From positions 47,185 through 111,184 of the forward strand of contig JAISSX010000018.1 of the NCBI GenBank assembly GCA_031272885.1: a stretch of DNA of 64,000 bases, in the 5' to 3' direction. Origin of the DNA: Bifidobacteriaceae bacterium (GTDB lineage: Bacteria > Actinomycetota > Actinomycetes > Actinomycetales > WQXJ01). A program made the translations under genes and the position numbers. Positions 5 to 54,872 of this stretch are shown here, piece after piece (positions within the stretch are counted from its first letter, which is position 1; each line of letters begins with the position of its first letter). The notes under the pieces were generated by a model. The model was given only the letters and a program-made list of their open reading frames with translations, did no database searches and had not been told where the DNA came from.

Positions 5-3000
5 ATGGCCGTCATGGCAGCCGCCTTCCTGGCGGTTGACCTGGGGTTGTTGAAGGCGGAGCTGACCTCTGGCCATGCCCTGGTCTACGGCCTGATGTTC
101 GCGTTGACGCTTGTCTCAGCCGCCGGCCTGACGGCCGGCGGCCGGGCCGTGGGCCTGCGCACCTGGCTATCTTGTGGCCTGGTGGTGGCACCGCTGTCCG
201 CGCTGTGGCTGATCAGCGCCTTCCGTTCACAGCACGCCACGGTGCGGGTGACCATTGCCTGCCTCAGCCTGGTGGCAATTGCGGCCGCCGCCAGACATGT
301 CATCCGGCTGTGGCGTGGGCCAGCGGCGGCGGCCGAAGACCAGGCGTTGGCGGTATGGGCGGCCCTGGCGCTGTTGATTGGGTCGATGGTGGCCCTGAGC
401 GGCACCGTGGCCGCCCTGGGCGCAGAGAGCTTTGAGGCCGCCCAACTGGCCGGACCCCGTTGGCTGGCCCCGGTGGCGTTGGTGGTGGCGGCCGGCCTGG
501 CGCTGGTGGCCGGGGCGCGCTGGCTCCTGGCGTTTGGTGTGGCCGCGGGCGTGCTGCTGACGCTGGCCGCCTATGTCACCGGCGCGGCCGCCCTGGACGC
601 CAGCCCCTCCTGGCCGGGCCTGGCGGGCCTACTGGCCCTGGCCGTGTGGCTGGCGTTAGCCGGCCTCACTCGCTTCGGGGCCGGCCCCGGGGCGGCCCGC
701 CAGGGGCTGGCCATCGGTGGCCTGGCCGGGGCGTTGGTGCTGACCCTGCCGCTTGCGCTGTGGCGCGCCTTCGAGCTGCTGTTCGTGTTCGATGTCCTCG
801 ATACTTTGGATGGCCGCGATGGCTCGCTTAGCGCCTGGCGGGTCATCCTGGGCAACGAGCTGAGCGACTGGACCGCCGTTAACACGGTGGCGTTGATCCT
901 CCCTGCCCTGACCGTGGCCGCCTGCCTCCTACTGCCAGTCCAAGGACGGTTGCTTGCCTGGTTGCACCGTAAGGGCACGGTGGTGCTGCCGGCCGTCGGC
1001 CTGTTCTGCGTTGCCCTGCTGGTAACGATGCCGGGCTGGCCGGCGCTGGCGTCGATGGTGGCATTGGCTGTTGTGACTGCCCTGGCCCTGATGGCCGCCC
1101 GGGCCTTGCTGCGCCATCCGGCCGCCGCGGCGCCGGCCAAGCCGCGACCGGCGGCGGCTGGCCCGGGGCTGCCTGGCCCGCCGCCCGGCTGGCCGCCGGG
1201 CACCTGGCTGGTGGCGGCACCGCCGGTGGGAGTTATTTCGGCGGGTGCCACGGCGCCGTCGGGCAGTACACCGGCTGTAACCGCTCAGGTGGGCAGCGTC
1301 CCGGCGGGTGCCGCGGCGCCATCGGGCAGTACACCGGGCGTAGCCGCTCAGGTGGACAGCGTCCGGGCGGGTGCCGCGGCGCCATCGGGCAGCACACCGG
1401 AAGCTTGGTGGCCCCGGCCGTGGACGTGGGTGCTGCGGTGTTCGGCGCTGGGCTTGCTGCCGCTGTTGTGGCTGATCAGTTGGATGGCCCGGCCGTTGGT
1501 GCCGGTGGGGACCGTGTTGCTGGCCGGCCTGTTGTGGGCGGCCGCGCGCCTGTTCCCCCGCCCGGCCATGGTGGTGGCGGTCGCGGTCGGCTACCCGTTG
1601 GTATTGCAGGCTGCCGGCCTGGCAGCCGTGTGGTACGTGCCGGCGGACTGGTTCGCGGACCCGGAGGGCCTGGTGGCGTTGGGCGGGGTTGGTGCGCTGG
1701 CCTGTCTGGGGGCCGCGGTTCTGAGCCTGTCGCGCTGGCCGCACCGGTGGACCTGGTACCTGGTGTGTGGGCTGAGCCTGGCGCCGGCGGGGTTGGCCAC
1801 CCTGGTGCTGTTCCACAACCGCAACTGGTGGAGCACGGCCGCCGCTTTGGCCGTGACAGTCTTGATGGCCACGGTGGCCGCCACGCCGCGGCGGGCGCTG
1901 CCGGTGGCGCTCCGGGCGGCGGCGGCTGCCCTTGTGCTGCCGGCCGCCGCCATGGGTTTGGCCGGAGTGGGCTCACTGCTGCTGCCCGGTTCGGCTTCGC
2001 CCGTCCTGGTGCCGGTGATTGCGGGCGTGGCGGCCGCGGCGGGGATAGCGGCCACGGCGTTGCAGCCGCGCGCGGTGGCCGTGGCCGGGTTAATCAGTGC
2101 CACCGCGACGGCCTGGGCCAGCGTGGCGGTAGCCGTCGCCTGGCCCCAGACCGACAACGTCACCGTGCTGGTGACGTGCGCCCTTGTGGCGGCCGGTTCC
2201 GCGGCCGTGGGATGGCTACACCAGGCTGGCGCGGGCTGGGCATGGGCCTCGGCCGCGGCCGGTGCGTTGGGTGTGCTGTGGGCCGCCTTGGGGCTGGGGC
2301 AGGTCGACCTGGCCGAGGCCTTCACCGTGCCACCTGCCCTCGCTGCCGTCGCCACCGGCTGGTTCCTGTCGCGTCGGCAGCCGCTCTGGGAGGGCCTGAC
2401 CCTGGCCGGCCTGGGCTTGGGCCTGATCCCTTCCCTGGTCCTGGAGGTAGGCGGCCACGGCCTGGTGCCGCGGGCCTTGGGTCTGACCGTAGCCGCGGCT
2501 CTGCTGCTGGCGGTGGCGGGGTTGGTGCCGGCGGGATCAGGGCCGGTGGGCCGGGTGCCGGTGGGCCGGGTGCCGGTGGGCCCGGCGCCGGCGGGGTCTG
2601 GGCCGGCGGGCCCGGTGCCGGCGGGCCCGGCGCCGGCGGGGTCTGGGCCGGCGGTGCGCCGGCCGTTTGGCATTGGCGCCATCGTCGCCGCGGGCGGGCC
2701 GGCTTGGCTGGGAATTGAACTGGCCAACTGGAGTGGCGACGATTGGGCTCACGGTACCTTCCGGCACCTGCAGGCTTACCCCACCGCCCAGTTCGGCCTG
2801 ATTGTGGCCCTGCTGGCGGCGGCCGGCCTGGCCGTCGCATTGGGGTGCGCAGCCTTGGCACCTTTGACCGGCCGCTGGGGCGATTGGTACCTGGCACCGG
2901 GCCTGGCCGTGGCGGCCTTGGGACCGGTCATCGGCATGCGCTTCACTTGGTGGATCGTGGCCATCACTTGGCTGATCATGGCTGGGCTATTGGCGTTGGG

Positions 3001-9544: not shown

Positions 9545-9912
9545 CAGCGGACGAGCCCGCCTGTAAGCCGGGTTCTGTCGAGGGCGGCCATCCCTCTAGG
9601 GCCCACGTTGCCGTGGGTCTCAAGCGGCCTACCCGGAAGCTCGGGCGAGCAGCCCTCGGGCGCTTCCTGCATGGCCTTGCTCCGGGTGGGGTTTGCCTAG
9701 CCGCCCGTGTCACCACGGGCGCTGGTGGTCTCTTACACCGCCGTTTCACCCTTACCCGCCACCGCGAAGAACGGCGGCGGGCGGTTTGCTTTCTGTGGCA
9801 CTGTCCCGCGGGTCACCCCGGGTGGGTGTTACCCACCACCCTGCTCTGTGGAGCCCGGACTTTCCTCGGTGGGGGCTAACCCCCAACGCGGCCGCCCGGC
9901 GAGCTCGTCCGG
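9545..9912 (-). ncRNA. rnpB: RNase P RNA (bacterial type A)
   Basis: The minus strand contains the universally conserved GAGGAAAGUCCGGGCUCCA (complement of 9848-9868) and ACAGAACCCGGCUUAC near the 3' end. P1 pairing is CGGACGAGCUCGCC.../...GGGCUCGUCCG. Ends are approximate to +/-5 nt. Confidence 0.9.
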
Positions 9913-12886: not shown

Positions 12887-13839
12887 CCCGCCACCTCCTC
12901 TTCTCTTGCTGCCTCACCTGCCGCCGATGCCGCCCCGTCACCCGCCGATGCCGCCCCGTCACCCGCCGATGGCGTCCCCGCGGCTTGGGCGTAGTACAAC
13001 GCCGCCACCCCCGTGCCGGCGGCCAGTTCCAGCCCGTCTACCCGGCTGATGGAGACCTCTGCCCCCAAGTAGCCCTTGAGCAACGCGATCCGGTCACCCG
13101 CCCGGCCGTTAGCGAGACCCAATTCCATGGCCTCACCAGGCCCGATGGCCTCGATCACATAGGGCGAGGCGACGGGTTGCAGTTCCACCTGGATGACTTC
13201 GCCCACATCACGGATGGCCGTCACCGAGGTCAGCCGCACCCCGCCCACGGAGATCGCCTCCGCCCCGGCCTGCCACAGCGCCCCCACGATGACGCGCAGG
13301 TCACCGGCGTGCAGGCGTGATTCGTCGTTGGGTGCGCCCTGGCCCGGTTCGGTTTGAGCCTGTTCCAGGGTGACCCGCAGGCCGGGCCCGCTGACGGCCG
13401 CCGCCCCCGCGGCCGCCGCCAGGTTCTGCGCCGCCCGCGCCGCTGACGGGTCCGCCGCCAACGCCTCGCGCCGCAGGGCATCGACTTCGGCCGCCAGCGA
13501 CGCCTCGCTGGCGCTCAACGCCTGCACGCGGTCGTATTCCTTGACGGTGTTGGCCTCCAGCACCGCCCGGGCCTCGGCCTCGCCCTGGCCAGGGTTGCGC
13601 AGCGCCTCCACCCCCCAGGTCACGGCGAGCCCCAGCAGCACAGCGATCAGCAGCACCGGCACTAGGGTGTAGCGCAGGGGCGGCGCGGTGCCGACCCGCT
13701 TGCGTTCGGCCGCCTCGGCGTAGCCGGCGTCCAAGGGCCGTTTCATGACCTCGGTTAGCAGCGTCATCGACGCGTCAAGAGGCCGCCGGCCAGTTCCGGC
13801 GGAAGACGTTTCAGGCCTGGGGCTGCCCGGGGTGCTCAC
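12883..13839 (-). CDS. DUF881-family membrane-anchored protein (start uncertain; ATG at 13767 is an alternative)
   Basis: Conserved GDLRVIVGALWQAGAEAISVGGVRLT domain. The longest ORF (to 14004) would overlap pgsA. GTG at 13839 forms a GTGA overlap with the pgsA stop codon. Confidence 0.75.
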   Translation of the reverse strand: MSTPGSPRPETSSAGTGRRPLDASMTLLTEVMKRPLDAGYAEAAERKRVGTAPPLRYTLVPVLLIAVLLGLAVTWGVEALRNPGQGEAEARAVLEANTVKEYDRVQALSASEASLAAEVDALRREALAADPSAARAAQNLAAAAGAAAVSGPGLRVTLEQAQTEPGQGAPNDESRLHAGDLRVIVGALWQAGAEAISVGGVRLTSVTAIRDVGEVIQVELQPVASPYVIEAIGPGEAMELGLANGRAGDRIALLKGYLGAEVSISRVDGLELAAGTGVAALYYAQAAGTPSAGDGAASAGDGAASAAGEAAREEEVAG

Positions 13840-18323: not shown

Positions 18324-18335
18324 GCGACCGATCAT

Positions 18336-18649
18336 CCCGGGGGTTACAGGGGCTGGTTCCGGGTACTGGGGGTTCCGGGTTACGGGTAACGGGTTACGGG
18401 TTACGGGTTACGGGTAGCGGGTAGCGGGTTACGGGTTACGGGTTACGGGTTACGGGTTACGGGTTACGGGTTACGGGTTACGGGTTACGGGGGTTACTGG
18501 GGACGGTTCCGTGTAACATGGGTGACGCCGTCACCCATGTTACTCGGTACCGTCCCCAGAAACCCCCGCTACCCGGAGCCGTCCCCCGCTACCCGGAGCC
18601 GTCCCCCGCTACACGGAACCGTCCCCAGTAACCCCCGGAACCAGCCGGG
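18336..18649. repeat. Giant imperfect palindrome built from G-rich (left arm) and C-rich (right arm) ~20-bp units plus a heptamer microsatellite; fills the rnd-like/dxs convergent gap
   Basis: The central hairpin at 18499-18557 is ggggacggttccgtgtaacatgggtgacg / ccgtcacccatgttactcggtaccgtcccc (2 mismatches in 29 bp). The right arm holds three or more units of ccgtcccccgctacccggag. The same family recurs at 53264-53551. Confidence 0.9.
18377..18488 (+). repeat. Heptanucleotide microsatellite (GGGTTAC)x16 (13 perfect units, 1 GGGTAAC, 2 GGGTAGC)
   Basis: Counted directly: 16 contiguous 7-bp units over 112 bp. The last nine (18426-18488) are perfect. Confidence 0.95.
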
Positions 18650-20584
18650 CTACGCGACCGGGTGGTCTACCAGCAGGGTGGACTTGACCCGTTCGGCAAT
18701 GGCTTTGGGGGTAAGCCCGGCGCGCTCCGCCAGCGCCTGGCGGGTGGCGTGCGGGAAAAACTCATCCGGCAGGCCGATCGTGATCACCGGCAGGCTGGAA
18801 CCGGCCTCGGCGATCTGCCGCACCAACGCCTCCCCCGCGCCGCCGCGCACGATGCCGTCCTCCACCGTCACCACCAGGTCGTGGCCGGCCGCCAGGCGCA
18901 CCAACGCCGGGTTGACCGGGAAGGCCCAGCGTGGGTCCACCACGGTGGCCTCGATGCCGCTGTCCTCAAGGAGGTGGGCGGCCGCCAGGGCGGTCAGGGC
19001 CTCGGCGCCGTAGCCCACCAACAACACGGCCGGCCCCGACCCGCCGGGTGACCGGGCGGCATCGGGCCTAAGCAGCACATCCAGGCCATCCACCCGCTCG
19101 ATAGCCGGCCGGTCCGAAGGCAGCGAGCCCTTGGGGTAGCGCAGCACGGTGGGGGCGTCATCGACCGCGATGGCCTCCGCCAGCAGTTCACGCAGGGTGG
19201 CGCCGTCACGCGGCGAAGCCAGCCTCAACCCCGGCACCAGGCCGAACAGGGCCATGTCCCATTGGCCGTTGTGGGAGGCGCCATCGGCCCCGGTCAAACC
19301 GGCCCTATCCAGCACAAACGTCACCCCGGCGTGGTGCAGGGCGGCGTCCATCAGCACCTGGTCGAAGGCCCGGTTGAGGAAACTGGCGTAAACCGCCACC
19401 ACGGGGTGGACGCCGGTGAAGGCCAAACCGGCCGCCATGGTGGCGGCGTGGGCCTCGGCGATGCCGACGTCGAAGACACGGTCCGGGAACTCGGCCGCGA
19501 AGGGCACCAAGCCAACCGGTTCCAGCATGGCGGCGGTGATGGCCACCAGGTGCGGGTTGGTGCGGCCCAGGCGGACCAGTTCGTCACCGAACACGGAGGT
19601 CCAGCCGAAGCGGGACGGCTCCAACGGCAGACCCGTCTCCGGGTGGATGCGGCCGACGGCGTGGAAGCGGTCCAGGCCGTGGCTTTCGGCCGGCACGTAG
19701 CCGCGGCCCTTTTCGGTGATGACGTGCACCAACACCGGGCCGGAATAGGCCTTGGCCTGGCGCAGGGCGCGTTCCACGGCGGCCTCATCGTGGCCATCCA
19801 CCGTACCGATGTACTTCAAGCCCAGGTCTTCGAACATGATCTGGGGCGCCACCACGTCCTTGATGCCCTTCTTCAGGCCGTGCAGGGCGCCGTAGACCAG
19901 GCGGCCCAGGCGGCCATGGGCTTGCAGGGTGCGTTTGCCCCAGGTCAGGATCTTCTCGTAGTGCGGCGTGGTGCGCAGGCCGTTCAGGTGCGCCGCCAGG
20001 CCGCCGATGGTGGGCGCGTAGGACCGGCCGTTGTCGTTCACCACGATGACCAGGCGGCCCTGGTGTTCGGCCGCGATGTGGTTCAGGGCCTCCCAGCTCA
20101 TGCCGCCGGTCAACGCGCCATCGCCCACCACCACCACGGTGTAGCGCTCCGGCTGGCCGGTCAACCGCCGGCCCGCCGTTATACCAGCCGCCCAGGACAA
20201 ACCCGCCGAGGCGTGCGTGTTCTCCACCACGTCATGGGCCGATTCGGCCCGGCTGGGGTAGCCCGACAGGCCGCCCTCTTCACGCAGGTGGGAGAAGTCC
20301 TGGCGGCCGGTCAGCAACTTGTGGACATAGGCCTGGTGGCCGGTGTCGAAGACGATGGTGTCCTGCGGCGAATCGAAGACGCGGTGCAGGGCGATGGTCA
20401 ACTCCACCACGCCCAGGTTGGGGCCCAGGTGGCCGCCGGTCTTGGAGACGGCGTCCACCAGAAACGCCCGGATGTCCGCCGCCAACGGTTCAAGCTGGTC
20501 GGCCGGCAGGCGCTTCAGATCACGCAGGCCACGCACCTGGGCCAGGGTGGCCCCGGGCTTTGCCTCAGGGGGCTTAGTTGTCAC
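18650..20584 (-). CDS. dxs: 1-deoxy-D-xylulose-5-phosphate synthase
   Basis: [45 protein letters not shown], the TPP motif [15 protein letters not shown], 644 aa. Confidence 0.96.
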
Positions 20585-28074: not shown

Positions 28075-28215
28075 CAACGGGCCGAACCTGTCCCATCGCA
28101 CGGGACCAGGAAAGCCAACCAGCAGCGATCCGGCTTCTAGGCCGGGGCGCCATCGGGCAGGTGTGTTTTGCTCACGTGGGGAAAAGACTGCCCGCCCAAC
28201 CAGGGGGCTACTGTG

Positions 28216-28289
28216 TGGGCCAGGTGGGGCTTGAACCCACGACCGGCGGATTATGAGTCCGCTGCTCTGACCGGCTGAGCTACTGGCCC
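28216..28289 (-). tRNA. tRNA-Met (anticodon CAU; elongator type, or possibly tRNA-Ile2 if lysidine-modified)
   Basis: The minus strand GGGCCAGTAGCTCAGCCGGTCAGAGCAGCGGACTCATAATCCGCCGGTCGTGGGTTCAAGCCCCACCTGGCCCA folds as a cloverleaf. The 1-72 pair is G1-C72 and the anticodon stem lacks the 3xGC run, so it is not an initiator. CCA is not encoded. Confidence 0.9.
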
Positions 28290-28319
28290 CGGGTCTGGGG
28301 GCCGGTGGGCCCTCTAGGG

Positions 28320-28392
28320 CTCCCGCCACTGGACTCGAACCAGTAACCCTCTGATTAACAGTCAGATGCTCTGCCGATTGAGCTAGGCGGGA
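28320..28392 (-). tRNA. tRNA-Asn (anticodon GUU)
   Basis: The minus strand TCCCGCCTAGCTCAATCGGCAGAGCATCTGACTGTTAATCAGAGGGTTACTGGTTCGAGTCCAGTGGCGGGAG folds as a cloverleaf, with anticodon loop CTGTTAA. Confidence 0.92.
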
Positions 28393-28421
28393 ATGACAAC
28401 CGGGGCTGCCAAGTCAGCAAG

Positions 28422-52442: not shown

Positions 52443-53177
52443 TTGGTGGGCACGATCATCGGCTTGAGCATTGGCGCGATAGTGGTTGCGTCCATGGCCG
52501 CCTTCTTTGTCCGCGCCGTCCAGGCGGGCCGCGCCGCCAAGATCGCCGCCACCACCGACTCGGCCGCCGCGGCCGAAAGCCTGACCGAAGACGTCCACAA
52601 CTCAGGCGAGGCCGAAGACCTGTTCGGGAACGTCCTGCTGTGGGGCAGAGACCCCACGGGGGACTGGGACACTACCTGGTCACAACAAGTCGACGAGGAT
52701 GGCCACGAAATCTATTCTAGGGACGACGTCGTCCACCTGCCGGAAAACTCGGATGACCTGGAACTGGAGCAGCCCTTCGCCGCTTTCCTGGTCGACATCC
52801 CCCACGAAGTCGAAGTAGAGGACGGCGAACAGGCCATCGAGATGGCCGAAGCCATCTTCACCGCTGGCGTGCGCGAAGAGTCCGCCCAGTTCGAGAACCT
52901 GGCCACCGCCGCTGTTGTCTACCGGAACATCACGGGCTGCTCCCTTTACTATGGCGAGTTCCAGAGAACCCACTGCCGGCAGGAAGCCACCATCTTCTAT
53001 TTCAACCTGGCCTATGAAGAGGTGATCGGTGTCGACTACTTCAAGGGCGAAGAACTGCCGGACTTGGTGGCCGCCGACCGGAAGACCGGCCCTTGGGAAG
53101 TGACCAACAAAGACCTGATCGAACACTGGCAGGACCGCCTGGGCATCGACCCTTCCACCGCCAGCCCCACCAAGTAG
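52443..53177 (+). CDS. Membrane-anchored acidic protein of unknown function (TTG/GTG start uncertain)
   Basis: N-terminal TM segment VGTIIGLSIGAIVVASMAAFFV followed by a ~200-aa Asp/Glu-rich domain. Composition is not shadow-like. Confidence 0.55.
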   Translation: MVGTIIGLSIGAIVVASMAAFFVRAVQAGRAAKIAATTDSAAAAESLTEDVHNSGEAEDLFGNVLLWGRDPTGDWDTTWSQQVDEDGHEIYSRDDVVHLPENSDDLELEQPFAAFLVDIPHEVEVEDGEQAIEMAEAIFTAGVREESAQFENLATAAVVYRNITGCSLYYGEFQRTHCRQEATIFYFNLAYEEVIGVDYFKGEELPDLVAADRKTGPWEVTNKDLIEHWQDRLGIDPSTASPTK

Positions 53178-53263
53178 GCAACGACCCTACCCGATGGCGT
53201 CCGGTCGCCAACCGGCAGGCAACCACGCGGCATCGGGCACCGCAGTCCGACCCGGGTCCCTTC

Positions 53264-53551
53264 GGGGGACGGTTCCGAGGTTACAGGGGACGGTTCCGGG
53301 GTTACAGGGGACGGTTCCGCGGAACGGGGTTGCGGGGGGGTACAGGGGACGGTTCCGAGGTTACAGGGGACAGTTCCGAGGTTACAGGGGACGGTTCCGG
53401 GTTACAGGGGACGGTTCCGGGTTACAGGGGACGGTTCCGTGTAACATCAGAGATGTTACACGGAACCGTCCCCTGTAACCCCCGCCACCTCAGCGCCGTC
53501 CCCTGTAACCCCGGAACCGTCCCCGGTAACCCCGGAACCGTCCCCTGTGAC
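53264..53551. repeat. Second giant palindromic repeat array: 8 tandem 20-21-bp (one 38-bp) G-rich units, a perfect 27-bp-stem central hairpin, and a shorter C-rich complementary arm
   Basis: Units GGGGACGGTTCCG(A/G)GGTTACA start at 53265, 53286, 53307, 53345, 53366, 53387, 53407 and 53427. The hairpin is gttacaggggacggttccgtgtaacat-cagag-atgttacacggaaccgtcccctgtaac (53421-53479). Confidence 0.92.
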
Positions 53552-53558
53552 AGACCGA

Positions 53559-54872
53559 TCAGGTGTCAGGCATCTGGCCGGACAGGAACTCGGTGTAGGC
53601 CGGCAGGTCAAGCTGACCGGAACCGGACACGCCGATCACGATGACGGGGCTCTCCCCCGCCTCGGTGGCCGCCCGCACCTGGCGCAGGGCACCGGCGATG
53701 GCGTGGTTGGACTCGGACGCGGGGATGATGCCTTCGGCGCGGGCGAACAACACGCCGGCCTCAAAGGCCTCGCGCTGCTTGACCGAGATGGCGCTCAGCA
53801 GCCCCTCATGGTAGGCGTGCGACACCAGCGGCGCCATGCCGTGATAGCGCAGGCCGCCGGCGTGCACCGGGTCCGGCACGAAGTCCTGCCCGAGGGTGTA
53901 CATCTTCAGCTTGGGGGTCATGCCGACGGTGTCGCCGAAGTCGTACTTGAACTCGCCTTCGGTCAGCGACGGCGCCGCCTTGGGCTCGCAGGCCACGATC
54001 TGGACGTGCTGGCGGCCTTCCAGGTTCTCGCGGATGAACGGGAACGAGATGCCGCCCAGGTTGGAGCCGCCACCGGCACAGGCGAACAAGTAGTCAACCG
54101 CCGGCTCTTCGAAGACAGCCAGTTGCTTCAGCACTTCCTGCCCGATGACGGTCTGGTGCAACAGCACGTGGTTCAGCACGGAGCCCAGCGAGTAGGAGGC
54201 GTTGGGGTCCTTGGCCGCTTCTTCGATGGCTTCCGAAATGGCCATGCCCAGCGAACCGGACGTGTCCGGGAACTTCAACCGCAGTTGGCGGCCCACCTCG
54301 GTCAGTTCCGATGGCGACCCAACGGCTTTGGCGCCGAACACGGCCATCTGGGCCGAACGGTACGGCTTGCCTTCAAACGAGGAACGCACCTGCCAGATGT
54401 CGCACTCCAGGCCGAACACCTCGGCCGCAAAGGCGAGGGCGGCGCCCCACTGGCCGGCGCCGGTTTCGGTGGTCAGCCGGGTGCGGCCGGCGATCTTGTT
54501 GAAGTAGGCCTGCGGCACGGACGAGTTGGCCTTGTGTGAACCGACCGGCGAGGCGCCCTCGTACTTGTAGTAGATGCGCGCTTTGGTGCCCAGGGCCTGC
54601 TCCAGGCGATACGCCCGGTAGAGCGGCGAGGGCCGCCACAGGCGGTAGATCTCACGGACGGCCTGGGGGATCTCGATCCAACGCTCGGCCGAGGCTTCCT
54701 GTTCGATCAGGCCCATGGGGAACAACGCGGTCAGATCGTCTGGCACCAGGGGTTCACCGGTGGCCGGGTGCAACGGCGGGGCCGGCGGAGTGGGAAAGTC
54801 AGGCACGATGTTGTACCAGTGGGTGGGGATCTCGTCTTCACCCAGTACGGCTTTGTACAGGTCTCTTGGCAT
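53559..54872 (-). CDS. TrpB2-type (TrpB-like) PLP-dependent tryptophan synthase beta-chain homolog, stand-alone
   Basis: N-terminus MPRDLYKAVLGEDEIPTHWYNIVPDFPTPPAPPLHPATGEPL is characteristic of the TrpB2 subfamily. The PLP-Lys context is YKYEGASPVGSHKANS; GGGSN is also present. No trpA or other trp genes are nearby. Confidence 0.85.
   Translation of the reverse strand: MPRDLYKAVLGEDEIPTHWYNIVPDFPTPPAPPLHPATGEPLVPDDLTALFPMGLIEQEASAERWIEIPQAVREIYRLWRPSPLYRAYRLEQALGTKARIYYKYEGASPVGSHKANSSVPQAYFNKIAGRTRLTTETGAGQWGAALAFAAEVFGLECDIWQVRSSFEGKPYRSAQMAVFGAKAVGSPSELTEVGRQLRLKFPDTSGSLGMAISEAIEEAAKDPNASYSLGSVLNHVLLHQTVIGQEVLKQLAVFEEPAVDYLFACAGGGSNLGGISFPFIRENLEGRQHVQIVACEPKAAPSLTEGEFKYDFGDTVGMTPKLKMYTLGQDFVPDPVHAGGLRYHGMAPLVSHAYHEGLLSAISVKQREAFEAGVLFARAEGIIPASESNHAIAGALRQVRAATEAGESPVIVIGVSGSGQLDLPAYTEFLSGQMPDT

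What the first reader, a model, noticed from the sequence alone, without database searches (positions are those of the whole stretch)
53264..53551. Second member of the palindromic G-rich array family, downstream of the stand-alone trpB2
Eight head-to-tail units of GGGGACGGTTCCG(A/G)GGTTACA (20-21 bp, one expanded to 38 bp) lead into a perfect 27-bp stem with a 5-nt loop (53421-53479). A shorter C-rich arm of 4-5 complementary units follows, so the two arms are asymmetric.

Like the 18.3-kb array, this one exactly fills a convergent intergenic gap (stops at 53177 and 53559). Two independent loci with the same architecture argue for a dedicated, possibly mobile or protein-recognised element rather than chance.
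Basis: seen in the sequence. Interest (0 to 1): 0.6.

Follow-up and report, generated by a model that had tools for sequence, protein, structure and literature searches.

The report
Repeat cluster left by a hairpin-cutting transposase
The G-rich/C-rich palindromic array behind trpB2 is a cluster of short repeats whose relatives elsewhere flank the genes of a REP-type (Y1/HUH) tyrosine transposase, so it is a parasitic or domesticated repeat of a known kind, seen here in an amplified form.

Summary
At 53265-53551 there are eight head-to-tail units of GGGGACGGTTCCG(N)GGTTACA, a perfect 30+3+30 palindrome, and four inverted units. They lie between convergent genes. A sister array lies at 18325-18655.

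The array is not private to this genome. Its invariant core, GGGGACGGTTC(C), sits between short arms that covary and can form a stem. This form recurs in more than 120 metagenome contigs with GC 0.30-0.70.

In eight independent loci, inverted copies of the core or a close variant flank a gene for a Y1/HUH transposase. These loci include termite-gut Actinobacteria and Clostridia MAGs and an Acetoanaerobium isolate. The protein carries the Y1_Tnp domain, has E. coli TnpA-REP (4ER8) as its only PDB relative, and ends in a helix-turn-helix. That matches the published "TIRYT/TIRtron" class (TnpA-Y1 subclass 2.1), whose terminal repeats carry GGGGWSAS.

Head-to-tail duplication of the 5' arm plus core occurs at most of those gene ends. 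The window's arrays are exaggerated versions of this.

No such transposase gene lies within the 64 kb, so the link to this genome is inferred. Any terminator or mRNA-stabilising role is untested, and there is no T-tract.

Verdict: a new member of a known kind, with an unusual head-to-tail arrangement. Interest is moderate to low.

The parts
53265..53426 (+). G-rich arm. Seven head-to-tail units (GGGGACGGTTCCG + 1-2 nt + GGTTACA; 21, 21, 38, 21, 21, 20 and 20 nt). Each carries the invariant core and the next unit's 5' arm, but none has a complementary 3' arm.
   Evidence: TRF; direct-repeat family D1; unit table.
53307..53344 (+). Expanded third unit (38 nt). It contains a small internal inverted repeat, CGGTTCCG/CGGAACG, and the only canonical G-quadruplex motif of this array (53326-53348).
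   Evidence: Sequence reading; unit table; G4 regex.
53419..53481 (.). Central perfect palindrome: 30-nt arms with a 3-nt gap (AGA). It equals two complete units back to back, a doublet like a REPIN.
   Evidence: Inverted repeat I8, 100% complementary; the MFE fold pairs these arms.
53421..53447 (+). Innermost complete unit, GTTACA-GGGGACGGTTCC-G-TGTAAC. Stem arms flank the invariant core, and it can form a hairpin on its own (-5.9 kcal/mol as ssDNA).
   Evidence: the arms covary with other stem types.
53454..53551 (-). C-rich arm: the mirror copy of the innermost unit (53454-53473), a degenerate 30-nt unit, two 21-nt units, and a terminal TGTGAC. The two outer units are the best complement (96%) of the outermost G-arm units at 53265-53314.
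   Evidence: (I1, I2).
52443..53177 (+). Left flanking ORF (244 aa, N-terminal hydrophobic segment, no Pfam hit). It converges on the array.
   Evidence: GC3 0.82.
53559..54872 (-). Right flanking gene: stand-alone TrpB-like PLP enzyme (trpB2). Its stop codon lies 7 nt from the end of the array.
   Evidence: PALP domain; homologues named TrpB-like, best match 89% identity in Propionibacteriaceae MAGs.
18325..18655 (.). Sister array. It starts with degenerate outer units and (GGGTTAC)x17, which is the 5' arm plus the first Gs of the core (18370-18491). Then come a complete unit, a palindromic centre (18499-18557), and 4-5 inverted units of about 20 nt (18561-18645). It lies between convergent RNase D-like and dxs genes.
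   Evidence: five canonical G4 motifs at 18361-18502.

Best explanation
The array is a cluster of REP-like or TIR-derived repeats belonging to a REP-type Y1 (HUH) tyrosine transposase system. This is the class published as TIRYT/TIRtron, or TnpA-Y1 subclass 2.1.

**Shown here**
- The functional unit is a short hairpin-capable motif: two arms that vary but covary (here GTTACA/TGTAAC) around an invariant core, GGGGACGGTTC(C).
- In other genomes, inverted copies of this motif bracket the transposase gene.
- Interior-deleted doublets and clusters of the motif are scattered in intergenic DNA.

**Inferred mechanism**
- The enzyme is encoded elsewhere in this genome. It recognises the folded motif on single-stranded DNA, as E. 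coli TnpA-REP does with REPs, then cuts and rejoins it.
- The back-to-back pair at the centre is the mobilisable doublet.
- The head-to-tail copies of "5' arm + core" arise from repeated out-of-register cleavage and rejoining, or from replication slippage at the hairpin foot.
- The cluster persists between convergent genes because that site does least harm.

**Speculative**
- As a secondary effect, the long hairpin probably blocks read-through and protects the 3' ends of both flanking transcripts.
For: 1. **The core is shared well beyond the window.**
   - L016 is a close relative (trpB2 86% identical). It has two single units, GTGTGACATT-GGGGACGGTTCC-(G/T)TT-TGTCACAC, on either side of trpB2-osmC.
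   - L002 matches 28/29 nt of the window's C arm.

2. **Y1 transposase genes are flanked by inverted copies of the core or a close variant in eight loci.**
   - L094, L113, L147, L148 and L149, L150 and L152/L153, and the isolate Acetoanaerobium noterae, L154.
   - The 170-nt elements in L028 and L061 have the same ends as L094 with the interior deleted.

3. **The protein is REP-type.**
   - Pfam Y1_Tnp, E = 2e-13.
   - NCBIfam REP_Tyr_transpos, E = 1e-17.
   - The only PDB hit of the family profile is 4ER8, TnpArep, with the HUH motif and the YxxxNP tyrosine aligned.
   - JGI names the homologues "REP element-mobilizing transposase RayT".
   - A C-terminal HTH_23 or HTH_28 match occurs in 18 and 13 of 34 members. 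This is as described for subclass 2.1, whose TIRs carry GGGGWSAS (PMC6006769, PMC3733652).

4. **The arms covary around an invariant core.**
   - Seven stem types were seen. 94.6% of cells are paired, 7 of 7 pairs change on both sides, and 0 of 500 shuffles reach this.

5. **The same architecture occurs next to a TIRYT gene in L150.**
   - There is a doublet between convergent genes (2490/2536).
   - There is also a cluster of three head-to-tail copies plus one inverted copy (12985-13076).
   - Partial head-to-tail duplications of the 5' arm occur at most transposase-gene ends.

6. **The array is absent from the other relatives examined.**
   - Downstream of trpB2, no core was found in L015, L017, L018 or L019. 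Their trpB2 proteins are 84-89% identical to the window's.
   - This fits gain by a mobile element.
Against: - No Y1_Tnp gene lies in the 64-kb window (tblastn; hmmsearch best E = 0.04). The trans-acting enzyme of this genome is therefore assumed, not seen.
- The window's exact stem type (GTTACA/TGTAAC) has not been found flanking any transposase gene.
- The genome-wide copy number is unknown. Only two loci are visible.
- The core matches the published GGGGWSAS motif at 7 of 8 positions (GGGGACGG). Only one window unit (GGGGACAG) matches it fully.
- Head-to-tail arrangement is stated to be rare for REPs (PMC3733652). The amplification mechanism is conjecture.
- Mobility, binding and cleavage have not been shown for any member of this subclass.
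- The metagenome pattern forced TGTNACA on the 3' side, which biases the catalogue of stem types.
- MAG binning (for example L002 as Bifidobacteriaceae) may be wrong.
Confidence: 0.75

Rival explanations
1. The array is a locally evolved, structure-only bidirectional transcription terminator or mRNA 3'-end stabiliser between convergent genes, with no link to a mobile element.
For: - Both arrays sit between convergent genes.
- The DNA fold is very stable, z = -13.95.
- Many family members lie 3-30 nt after stop codons.
Against: - The scan finds no T-tract and no terminator-like site.
- The identical 11-12-nt core recurs across phyla and brackets Y1 transposase genes. In-situ evolution of a terminator does not predict this.
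- Family members also lie 25-50 nt upstream of start codons, and they show no strong strand bias relative to the flanking genes: 14 against 9.
- Termination may still be a secondary effect.
Confidence: 0.1
2. The array is a set of double-stranded binding sites for a DNA-binding protein, in the manner of iterons, a centromere or an operator. The 20-21-bp period puts the sites on one face of the helix.
For: - The period of 20-21 bp is about two helical turns.
- The complete unit is a 27-bp near-palindrome.
- The associated transposases carry a C-terminal helix-turn-helix.
Against: - No replication or partition gene lies nearby.
- The motif was not found in plasmid or phage collections.
- The arm sequences change freely while staying complementary. 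That is easier to explain by a hairpin than by a fixed dimer site.
- The sister array's repeat is a 7-mer, so it has no 21-bp phasing.
Confidence: 0.08
3. The array is a miniature inverted-repeat element (MITE) of a conventional DDE transposon whose ends carry multiple transposase sites, with the interior lost.
For: - The arms are inverted, with several sites per arm.
- The 170-nt elements in L028 and L061 have roughly 30-bp terminal inverted repeats.
Against: - ORFs of 120 loci were clustered and no recurrent DDE transposase appeared.
- The only recurrent partner is the Y1 enzyme, found by tblastn in L094 and L113.
- No target-site duplication is seen by reading at L028 or L061.
Confidence: 0.04
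4. The array is a G-quadruplex or telomere-like functional tract, selected for G4 formation.
For: (GGGTTAC)x17 gives five consecutive canonical G4 motifs at 18361-18502, and there is one more at 53326-53348.
Against: - The 53-kb array has G-runs 20-21 nt apart, so it has only one canonical motif.
- In other genomes the same position holds repeats that are not G4-prone, such as GAGCCAYGGGT, GCAGACAAAAG and AATCATTAGG.
- The window holds 30 G4 motifs in all, so the background is high.
Confidence: 0.03

Closest known systems
TIRtron / TIRYT repeats (Di Nocera et al. 2013, PMC3733652), equal to TnpA-Y1 subclass 2.1 (Quentin et al. 2018, PMC6006769)
   Same: - The transposase is RAYT-like and longer than classical RAYTs, with a C-terminal helix-turn-helix.
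- Its gene is flanked by inverted repeats carrying a GGGG-led motif (GGGGWSAS against GGGGACGG here).
- The terminal repeats also occur away from the gene as single copies, dimers and clusters.
   Different: - The motif matches GGGGWSAS at 7 of 8 positions.
- The conserved block here is longer (GGGGACGGTTC) and lies between covarying stem arms, so the "TIR" is itself a REP-like hairpin. Quentin et al. reported finding no REP-like sequences for this subclass.
- The word "Actinobacteria" does not occur in the main text of either paper.
- Long head-to-tail amplification (8 units, or 17 heptamers) was not found described in the passages read.
REP / REPIN - RAYT systems of E. coli and Pseudomonas (TnpA-REP, PDB 4ER8; Bertels & Rainey 2011; Ton-Hoang 2012)
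   Same: - Short extragenic palindromes and inverted doublets that fold into long hairpins.
- A Y1/HUH enzyme whose gene is bracketed by the repeats.
- A preference for the 3' ends of genes and for convergent gaps.
   Different: - There is no GTAG tag.
- The conserved element is central rather than 5' of the stem.
- The protein scores below the NCBIfam cut-off for REP_Tyr_transpos: 64 bits against 80.
- The arrays are head-to-tail rather than head-to-head or tail-to-tail.
BIMEs (bacterial interspersed mosaic elements)
   Same: Clusters of many REP units in one intergenic region.
   Different: BIMEs alternate REP orientation at regular spacing with defined linkers (abstract of PMC2817692). Here, runs of one orientation meet at a single centre.
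IS200/IS605 subterminal hairpins and their miniature derivatives
   Same: A Y1 HUH enzyme acts on folded single-stranded ends, and no target-site duplication is made (from established knowledge of IS608 and ISDra2).
   Different: In IS200/IS605 the left and right ends differ and are not inverted repeats of each other. The enzymes lack the C-terminal HTH, and the elements are multicopy with their gene.

Membership tests
TIRYT/TIRtron repeats (TnpA-Y1 subclass 2.1) | The associated protein has the Y1_Tnp fold, with an HUH motif and a catalytic Tyr, and is closer to TnpA-REP than to IS200 TnpA. | tested here: met
   - PF01797, E = 2e-13.
- NF047646, E = 1e-17.
- The family profile hits only 4ER8 TnpArep, with HUH and YxxxNP aligned.
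- H60, H62 and Y119 are invariant in 34 members.
- This was tested on related loci, not on the window.
TIRYT/TIRtron repeats (TnpA-Y1 subclass 2.1) | The protein has a C-terminal helix-turn-helix extension (Bac_DnaA_C, HTH_23 or HTH_28). | tested here: met
   HTH_23 matches 18 of 34 members and HTH_28 matches 13 of 34, at weak E-values. The proteins are about 250 aa long.
TIRYT/TIRtron repeats (TnpA-Y1 subclass 2.1) | The gene is flanked by terminal inverted repeats carrying GGGGWSAS. | tested here: inconclusive
   Inverted flanks were found in eight loci. The motif there is GGGGACGG, which fits 7 of 8 positions. Window unit 5 (GGGGACAG) fits all 8.
TIRYT/TIRtron repeats (TnpA-Y1 subclass 2.1) | A TIRYT gene in the same genome carries the window's repeat at its ends. 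| not testable with these tools
   No Y1_Tnp gene lies in the 64-kb window. The source genome is not in the searchable collections.
REP / REPIN (classical, GTAG-tagged) | A 20-40-nt imperfect palindrome that can form a stem-loop, located outside genes. | tested here: met
   The complete unit folds at -5.9 kcal/mol. The arms covary. Both arrays are intergenic.
REP / REPIN (classical, GTAG-tagged) | A conserved unpaired GTAG (or CGTC) tag at one end of the stem. | tested here: not met
   No GTAG flanks the units. CGTC occurs only inside the core on the C strand, not as a terminal tag (compare).
REP / REPIN (classical, GTAG-tagged) | High copy number across the genome. | not testable with these tools
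   Only 64 kb is available. It holds two clusters with 21 core copies at up to 1 mismatch.
BIME | REPs in regularly alternating orientation. | tested here: not met
   Eight units face one way and four face the other, with a single switch at the centre.
CRISPR array | Repeats separated by unique spacers of similar length. | tested here: not met
   The units abut one another with no spacers.
Intrinsic (Rho-independent) terminator | A GC-rich hairpin followed by a T-run. | tested here: not met
   No terminator-like site was found in 52900-53900 on either strand.
Any Rfam RNA family | A score at or above the family's gathering threshold. | tested here: not met
   Nothing was found at the array. 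The permissive scan gave only generic hairpin (miRNA-precursor) matches below threshold. Nothing overlapped the motif in 16 related loci.
DDE-transposon MITE | Terminal inverted repeats plus target-site duplications, and a matching DDE transposase. | tested here: not met
   No recurrent DDE transposase appeared among the ORFs of 120 loci. No direct repeats are seen at the ends of the L028 and L061 elements (by reading only).

The most novel reading that the evidence does not exclude
The subclass 2.1 ("TIRYT") Y1 transposases were reported to lack REP-like substrates. On this reading they do have one: a hairpin whose arms are free to vary, built around an invariant centre of about 11 nt, GGGGACGGTTC. 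That centre is kept from GC 34% Clostridia to GC 71% Actinobacteria. This would define a third REP super-family, tagged at the centre, beside the GTAG and CGTC types. Its head-to-tail "stutter" arrays (8 x 21 nt here, 17 x 7 nt in the sister locus) would be a direct footprint of repeated cleavage and rejoining by the enzyme.
Probability: 0.35. Interest if true: 0.5.

Novelty: new member of a known kind. Interest (0 to 1): 0.33.

Why it matters
- **Annotation.** It explains two conspicuous arrays, and probably many contig breaks, in an uncultured termite-gut-type Propionibacteriaceae lineage as products of a known class of mobile or domesticated DNA. Neither a new regulatory device nor a CRISPR-like system is needed.
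- **Search key.** The invariant core GGGGACGGTTC gives a simple way to annotate this repeat family across Actinobacteria and Clostridia.
- **Biochemistry.** The natural units give concrete single-stranded substrates for testing subclass 2.1 Y1 transposases, which have no demonstrated activity.
- **Gene expression.** The arrays sit 7 nt from the stop of trpB2 and directly behind dxs, so they may affect expression of those genes.

Tried and rejected
- **Exact look-ups of trpB2** with two alternative starts found no contig. The source genome is not on record, so strains could not be compared.
- **Genome-collection scan** with the 18-mer GGGACGGTTCCGTGTAAC gave 14 hits. Thirteen were unrelated: conserved Bradyrhizobium or alphaproteobacterial sites, Nonomuraea and Streptomyces sites, and a Tannerellaceae MAG site. 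Only L002 was related.
- **Viral-contig scan** gave only coding or chance hits.
- **Plasmid and phage blastn** of the consensus unit found nothing relevant.
- **Literature search** for the 12-mer found nothing relevant.
- **Rfam** found no family.
- **ORF clustering** around 120 motif loci first gave only ABC transporters and a surface-protein family. The transposase link was found only by reading L094's ORFs.
- **phmmer of one TIRYT against PDB** found nothing. The family profile was needed.
- **Strand preference.** No clear difference in single-unit stability between the G and C strands, and only a weak bias relative to flanking genes (14 against 9). An RNA-only reading was therefore not pursued.
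- **Ideas set aside after the Y1 association was found:** CRP/MatP-like operators, recombinase sites or invertons, protelomerase sites, IS21/Tn7-like multi-site ends, and IS6-like ends. None was tested against the data.

Full report
**What is in the window**

Positions 53265-53551 hold eight head-to-tail units on the + strand. Each unit is GGGGACGGTTCCG, one or two variable bases, then GGTTACA. Their lengths are 21, 21, 38, 21, 21, 20, 20 and 20 nt. A 7-nt centre follows, then four inverted units of 20, 30 (degenerate), 21 and 21 nt, and a terminal TGTGAC.

The two innermost units form a perfect palindrome with 30-nt arms 3 nt apart, at 53419-53481.

The outermost G-arm units (53265-53314) are the best complement, at 96%, of the outer C-arm units. 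The asymmetry therefore comes mainly from about four extra inner units on the G side.

The 13-mer core is far over-represented: 24 matches at up to 2 mismatches against 6.3 expected, with no shuffle out of 100 as high. All exact copies lie in this array and in the sister array at 18325-18655. As single-stranded DNA the region folds at -126 kcal/mol, z = -13.95.

Both arrays lie between convergent genes with coding-like GC3:
- a 244-aa ORF and trpB2 at this locus;
- an RNase D-like gene and dxs at the sister locus.

The gap is not filled exactly. Eighty-seven non-repeat bases precede the array.

**Whose genome**

The closest trpB2 proteins are 84-89% identical and come from uncultured Propionibacteriaceae MAGs and termite-type JGI metagenomes. 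The genome itself is not in the collections.

Of five relatives' contigs, four have no core downstream of trpB2: L015, L017, L018 and L019. The fifth, L016, has two single units, GTGTGACATT-GGGGACGGTTCC-(G/T)TT-TGTCACAC, on either side of trpB2-osmC. The array is therefore a lineage-specific gain or expansion, but the core motif is older than this genome.

**The unit is a widespread motif**

A genome-collection scan found one related site, L002, with a 28/29-nt match to the C arm.

A metagenome scan for the core followed by TGTNACA stopped at its 120-contig limit. It returned contigs of GC 0.30-0.70 from termite gut, human gut and bioreactors. The general form is [arm]-(0-3 nt)-GGGGACGGTTCC-(1-3 nt)-[complementary arm].

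Three features of the window recur there:
- back-to-back palindromic pairs (L073, L129, L089, L130);
- inverted pairs 100-150 nt apart (L028, L061, L056, L093);
- short head-to-tail repeats made of the 5' arm plus the first Gs of the core, directly upstream of a complete unit. Examples are (GAGCCAYGGGT)n and GTGACAG GTGACAG, which parallel the window's (GGGTTAC)17 and its 21-nt units.

The motif lies in short intergenic gaps, often 3-30 nt after a stop or 25-50 nt before a start. It shows only a weak strand bias relative to the neighbouring genes, 14 against 9.

No Rfam family, plasmid record, phage record or paper was found to hold the motif.

**The partner gene**

Reading the ORFs of L094 revealed a 256-aa Y1_Tnp protein (PF01797, E = 2e-13) with HVHLL and YIHxNP motifs. 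Its best NCBIfam match is REP_Tyr_transpos, at E = 1e-17 but below the curated cut-off.

The gene is bracketed by inverted copies of GGGGACGGTTCC-NN-TGTCACAGCTTGTCA. Each copy is preceded on its outer side by (GAGCCAYGGGT)n. The 170-nt elements of L028 and L061 are the same ends with the interior deleted.

Seven further homologues, 33-59% identical to one another or to L094, were examined. All are bracketed by inverted copies of the core or a close variant.

| Locus | Source | Flanking motif |
|---|---|---|
| L113 | metagenome contig | GGAAACA-GA-GGGACGGTTCT-TTT-TGTTTCC |
| L149 | Clostridiales XIII MAG | GGACAAAA-GGGGACGGTTCA-TTTGTCC |
| L148 | Bifidobacteriaceae MAG | GGGGACGGTCCT, two copies per side |
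| L147 | Propionibacteriaceae MAG | variant GGGGACTGGCCC |
| L150 | actinobacterial MAG, GC 0.71 | TGACGCA-cc-GGGGACGGTTCC-tcc-TGCGTCA, two per side |
| L152/L153 | GC 0.70 | core, two copies per side |
| L154 | isolate Acetoanaerobium noterae, GC 0.34 | AAATCATT-AGGGACGGTTC-TTTTTGATTT |

A profile of 34 family members hits a single PDB entry, 4ER8, E. coli TnpA-REP bound to a REP, with the HUH and tyrosine motifs aligned. JGI names many homologues "REP element-mobilizing transposase RayT". Most members carry a weak C-terminal HTH_23 or HTH_28 match.

**Structure of the unit**

Across eight units from six contigs, the 10-nt centre is invariant while the seven arm pairs all change on both sides and stay complementary. 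94.6% of cells are paired, and 0 of 500 shuffles or slid registers come close.

This alignment was built by hand from the arms, so it leans toward the structure.

Single units fold modestly on either strand, at -4.5 to -10 kcal/mol.

**Placement among known systems**

Di Nocera et al. (PMC3733652) described RAYT-like genes flanked by inverted repeats rather than GTAG REPs. They called these TIRtrons, encoding TIRYTs. They noted a shared GGGGWSAS motif, and that the TIR repeats also occur as single, dimeric or grouped copies.

Quentin et al. (PMC6006769) equated TIRYTs with TnpA-Y1 subclass 2.1. This subclass is defined by a C-terminal HTH, and they reported finding no REP-like sequences for it.

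The family found here fits that class on the following points:
- protein type and C-terminal HTH;
- inverted flanks;
- GGGGACGG, which is 7 of 8 positions of GGGGWSAS;
- dispersed dimers and clusters.

It fails the defining tag of classical REPs, since there is no GTAG. It also fails the alternating orientation of BIMEs. In L150, 2-3 kb from a TIRYT gene, there is a three-plus-one head-to-tail/inverted cluster, and 7.5 kb away a doublet between convergent genes. This is the window's architecture in miniature.

**How it most likely works**

*Shown:* the array is built from the terminal-repeat motif of this transposase class. The motif is a covarying hairpin around an invariant core. Head-to-tail partial duplications are a family trait.

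*Inferred:* a TIRYT is encoded elsewhere in this genome. It recognises the folded unit on single-stranded DNA, by analogy with TnpA-REP and IS200/IS605 enzymes. The central back-to-back pair is the mobilisable doublet. The one-orientation runs arise by repeated out-of-register cleavage and rejoining, or by slippage at the hairpin foot. The cluster survives between convergent genes because insertion there is least harmful.

*Speculative:* the long hairpin attenuates read-through and stabilises the 3' ends of trpB2 and the opposing transcript. There is no T-tract, and the scan found no terminator-like site.

**Rivals**

- A purely local terminator does not explain the cross-phylum core or the transposase association.
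- A duplex protein-binding array is not excluded, because the enzyme has an HTH. It is disfavoured by the free covariation of the arms and by the 7-nt period of the sister array.
- A DDE-type MITE lacks both a transposase and target duplications.
- G-quadruplex selection fits only the heptamer tract.
- A CRISPR array is excluded because there are no spacers.

**Limits**

- No Y1 gene lies in the 64 kb.
- The window's own arm type has not been seen next to a transposase gene.
- Genome-wide abundance and strain variation could not be examined.
- The metagenome pattern biased the 3' arm to TGTNACA, and that scan was truncated.
- MAG taxonomy is only as good as the binning.

**Verdict**

It is a new member of a known kind: TIRYT/RAYT-associated repeats, in an amplified head-to-tail form.

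Two points have some wider interest. The core is invariant from Clostridia to Actinobacteria. And subclass 2.1 enzymes do have a REP-like hairpin substrate.

Noticed in passing
window 18325-18655: The sister array contains (GGGTTAC)x17, which gives five back-to-back canonical G-quadruplex motifs (18361-18502). Its outermost units on both arms share the same variant core (GGGGCTGGTTCC / GGAACCAGCC). This suggests arm-to-arm copying, or that the whole palindrome is old.
   Followed up: partly
L033 1369-1640; L047 3300-3600 (also L076, L100, L102, L111, L114, L131, L135): In human-gut contigs, two consecutive long hairpins lie in the conserved leader of a surface-protein gene of about 1960 aa. 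The hairpins are built from arms of the GGGGACGGTTCCTTTGTCACA type. In L033 a third, inverted core copy lies inside the signal-peptide codons (MGQKEPSPRR). This could be an inversion switch or a leader regulator.
   Followed up: no
L001, L004, L006, L007, L008, L010, L013, L014 (match positions): Eight Bradyrhizobium or uncultured alphaproteobacterial genomes share AGTGAGAAAATC-CGGGACGGTTCCGTGTAACGTCGG. This is a conserved element of unknown nature that happens to contain most of the core.
   Followed up: no
L150 8368-10810 and L152 3400-5917: In two GC-rich actinobacterial MAGs the TIRYT gene sits at the same place, directly downstream of threonine synthase. This looks like a vertically inherited, single-copy (domesticated) gene.
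   Followed up: partly
L016 9786-9822 and 11729-11765: In a close relative, single complete units bracket the trpB2-osmC pair, and the osmC stop codon lies inside the 5' arm. The window has trpB2 without osmC and carries the large array instead.
   Followed up: partly
L147 5640-5740 and 6600-6680: A Propionibacteriaceae MAG carries a TIRYT with a different terminal repeat: (ACACTGCCATTGGGGACT)x2 followed by GGCCCTTTTGGC. It lies next to an AbiEii/AbiEi pair, so several repeat classes exist within the family.
   Followed up: no
window 9548-9907 (-), 28215-28393 (-): RNase P RNA (class A, 315 bits) and adjacent tRNA-Met and tRNA-Asn genes. These are ordinary features.
   Followed up: no
window 1239-1400 and 2515-2654: Other tandem repeats: 63 nt x 2.6 and 15 nt x 8-9, the latter G+C-rich. 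They are probably coding repeats and were not examined.
   Followed up: no
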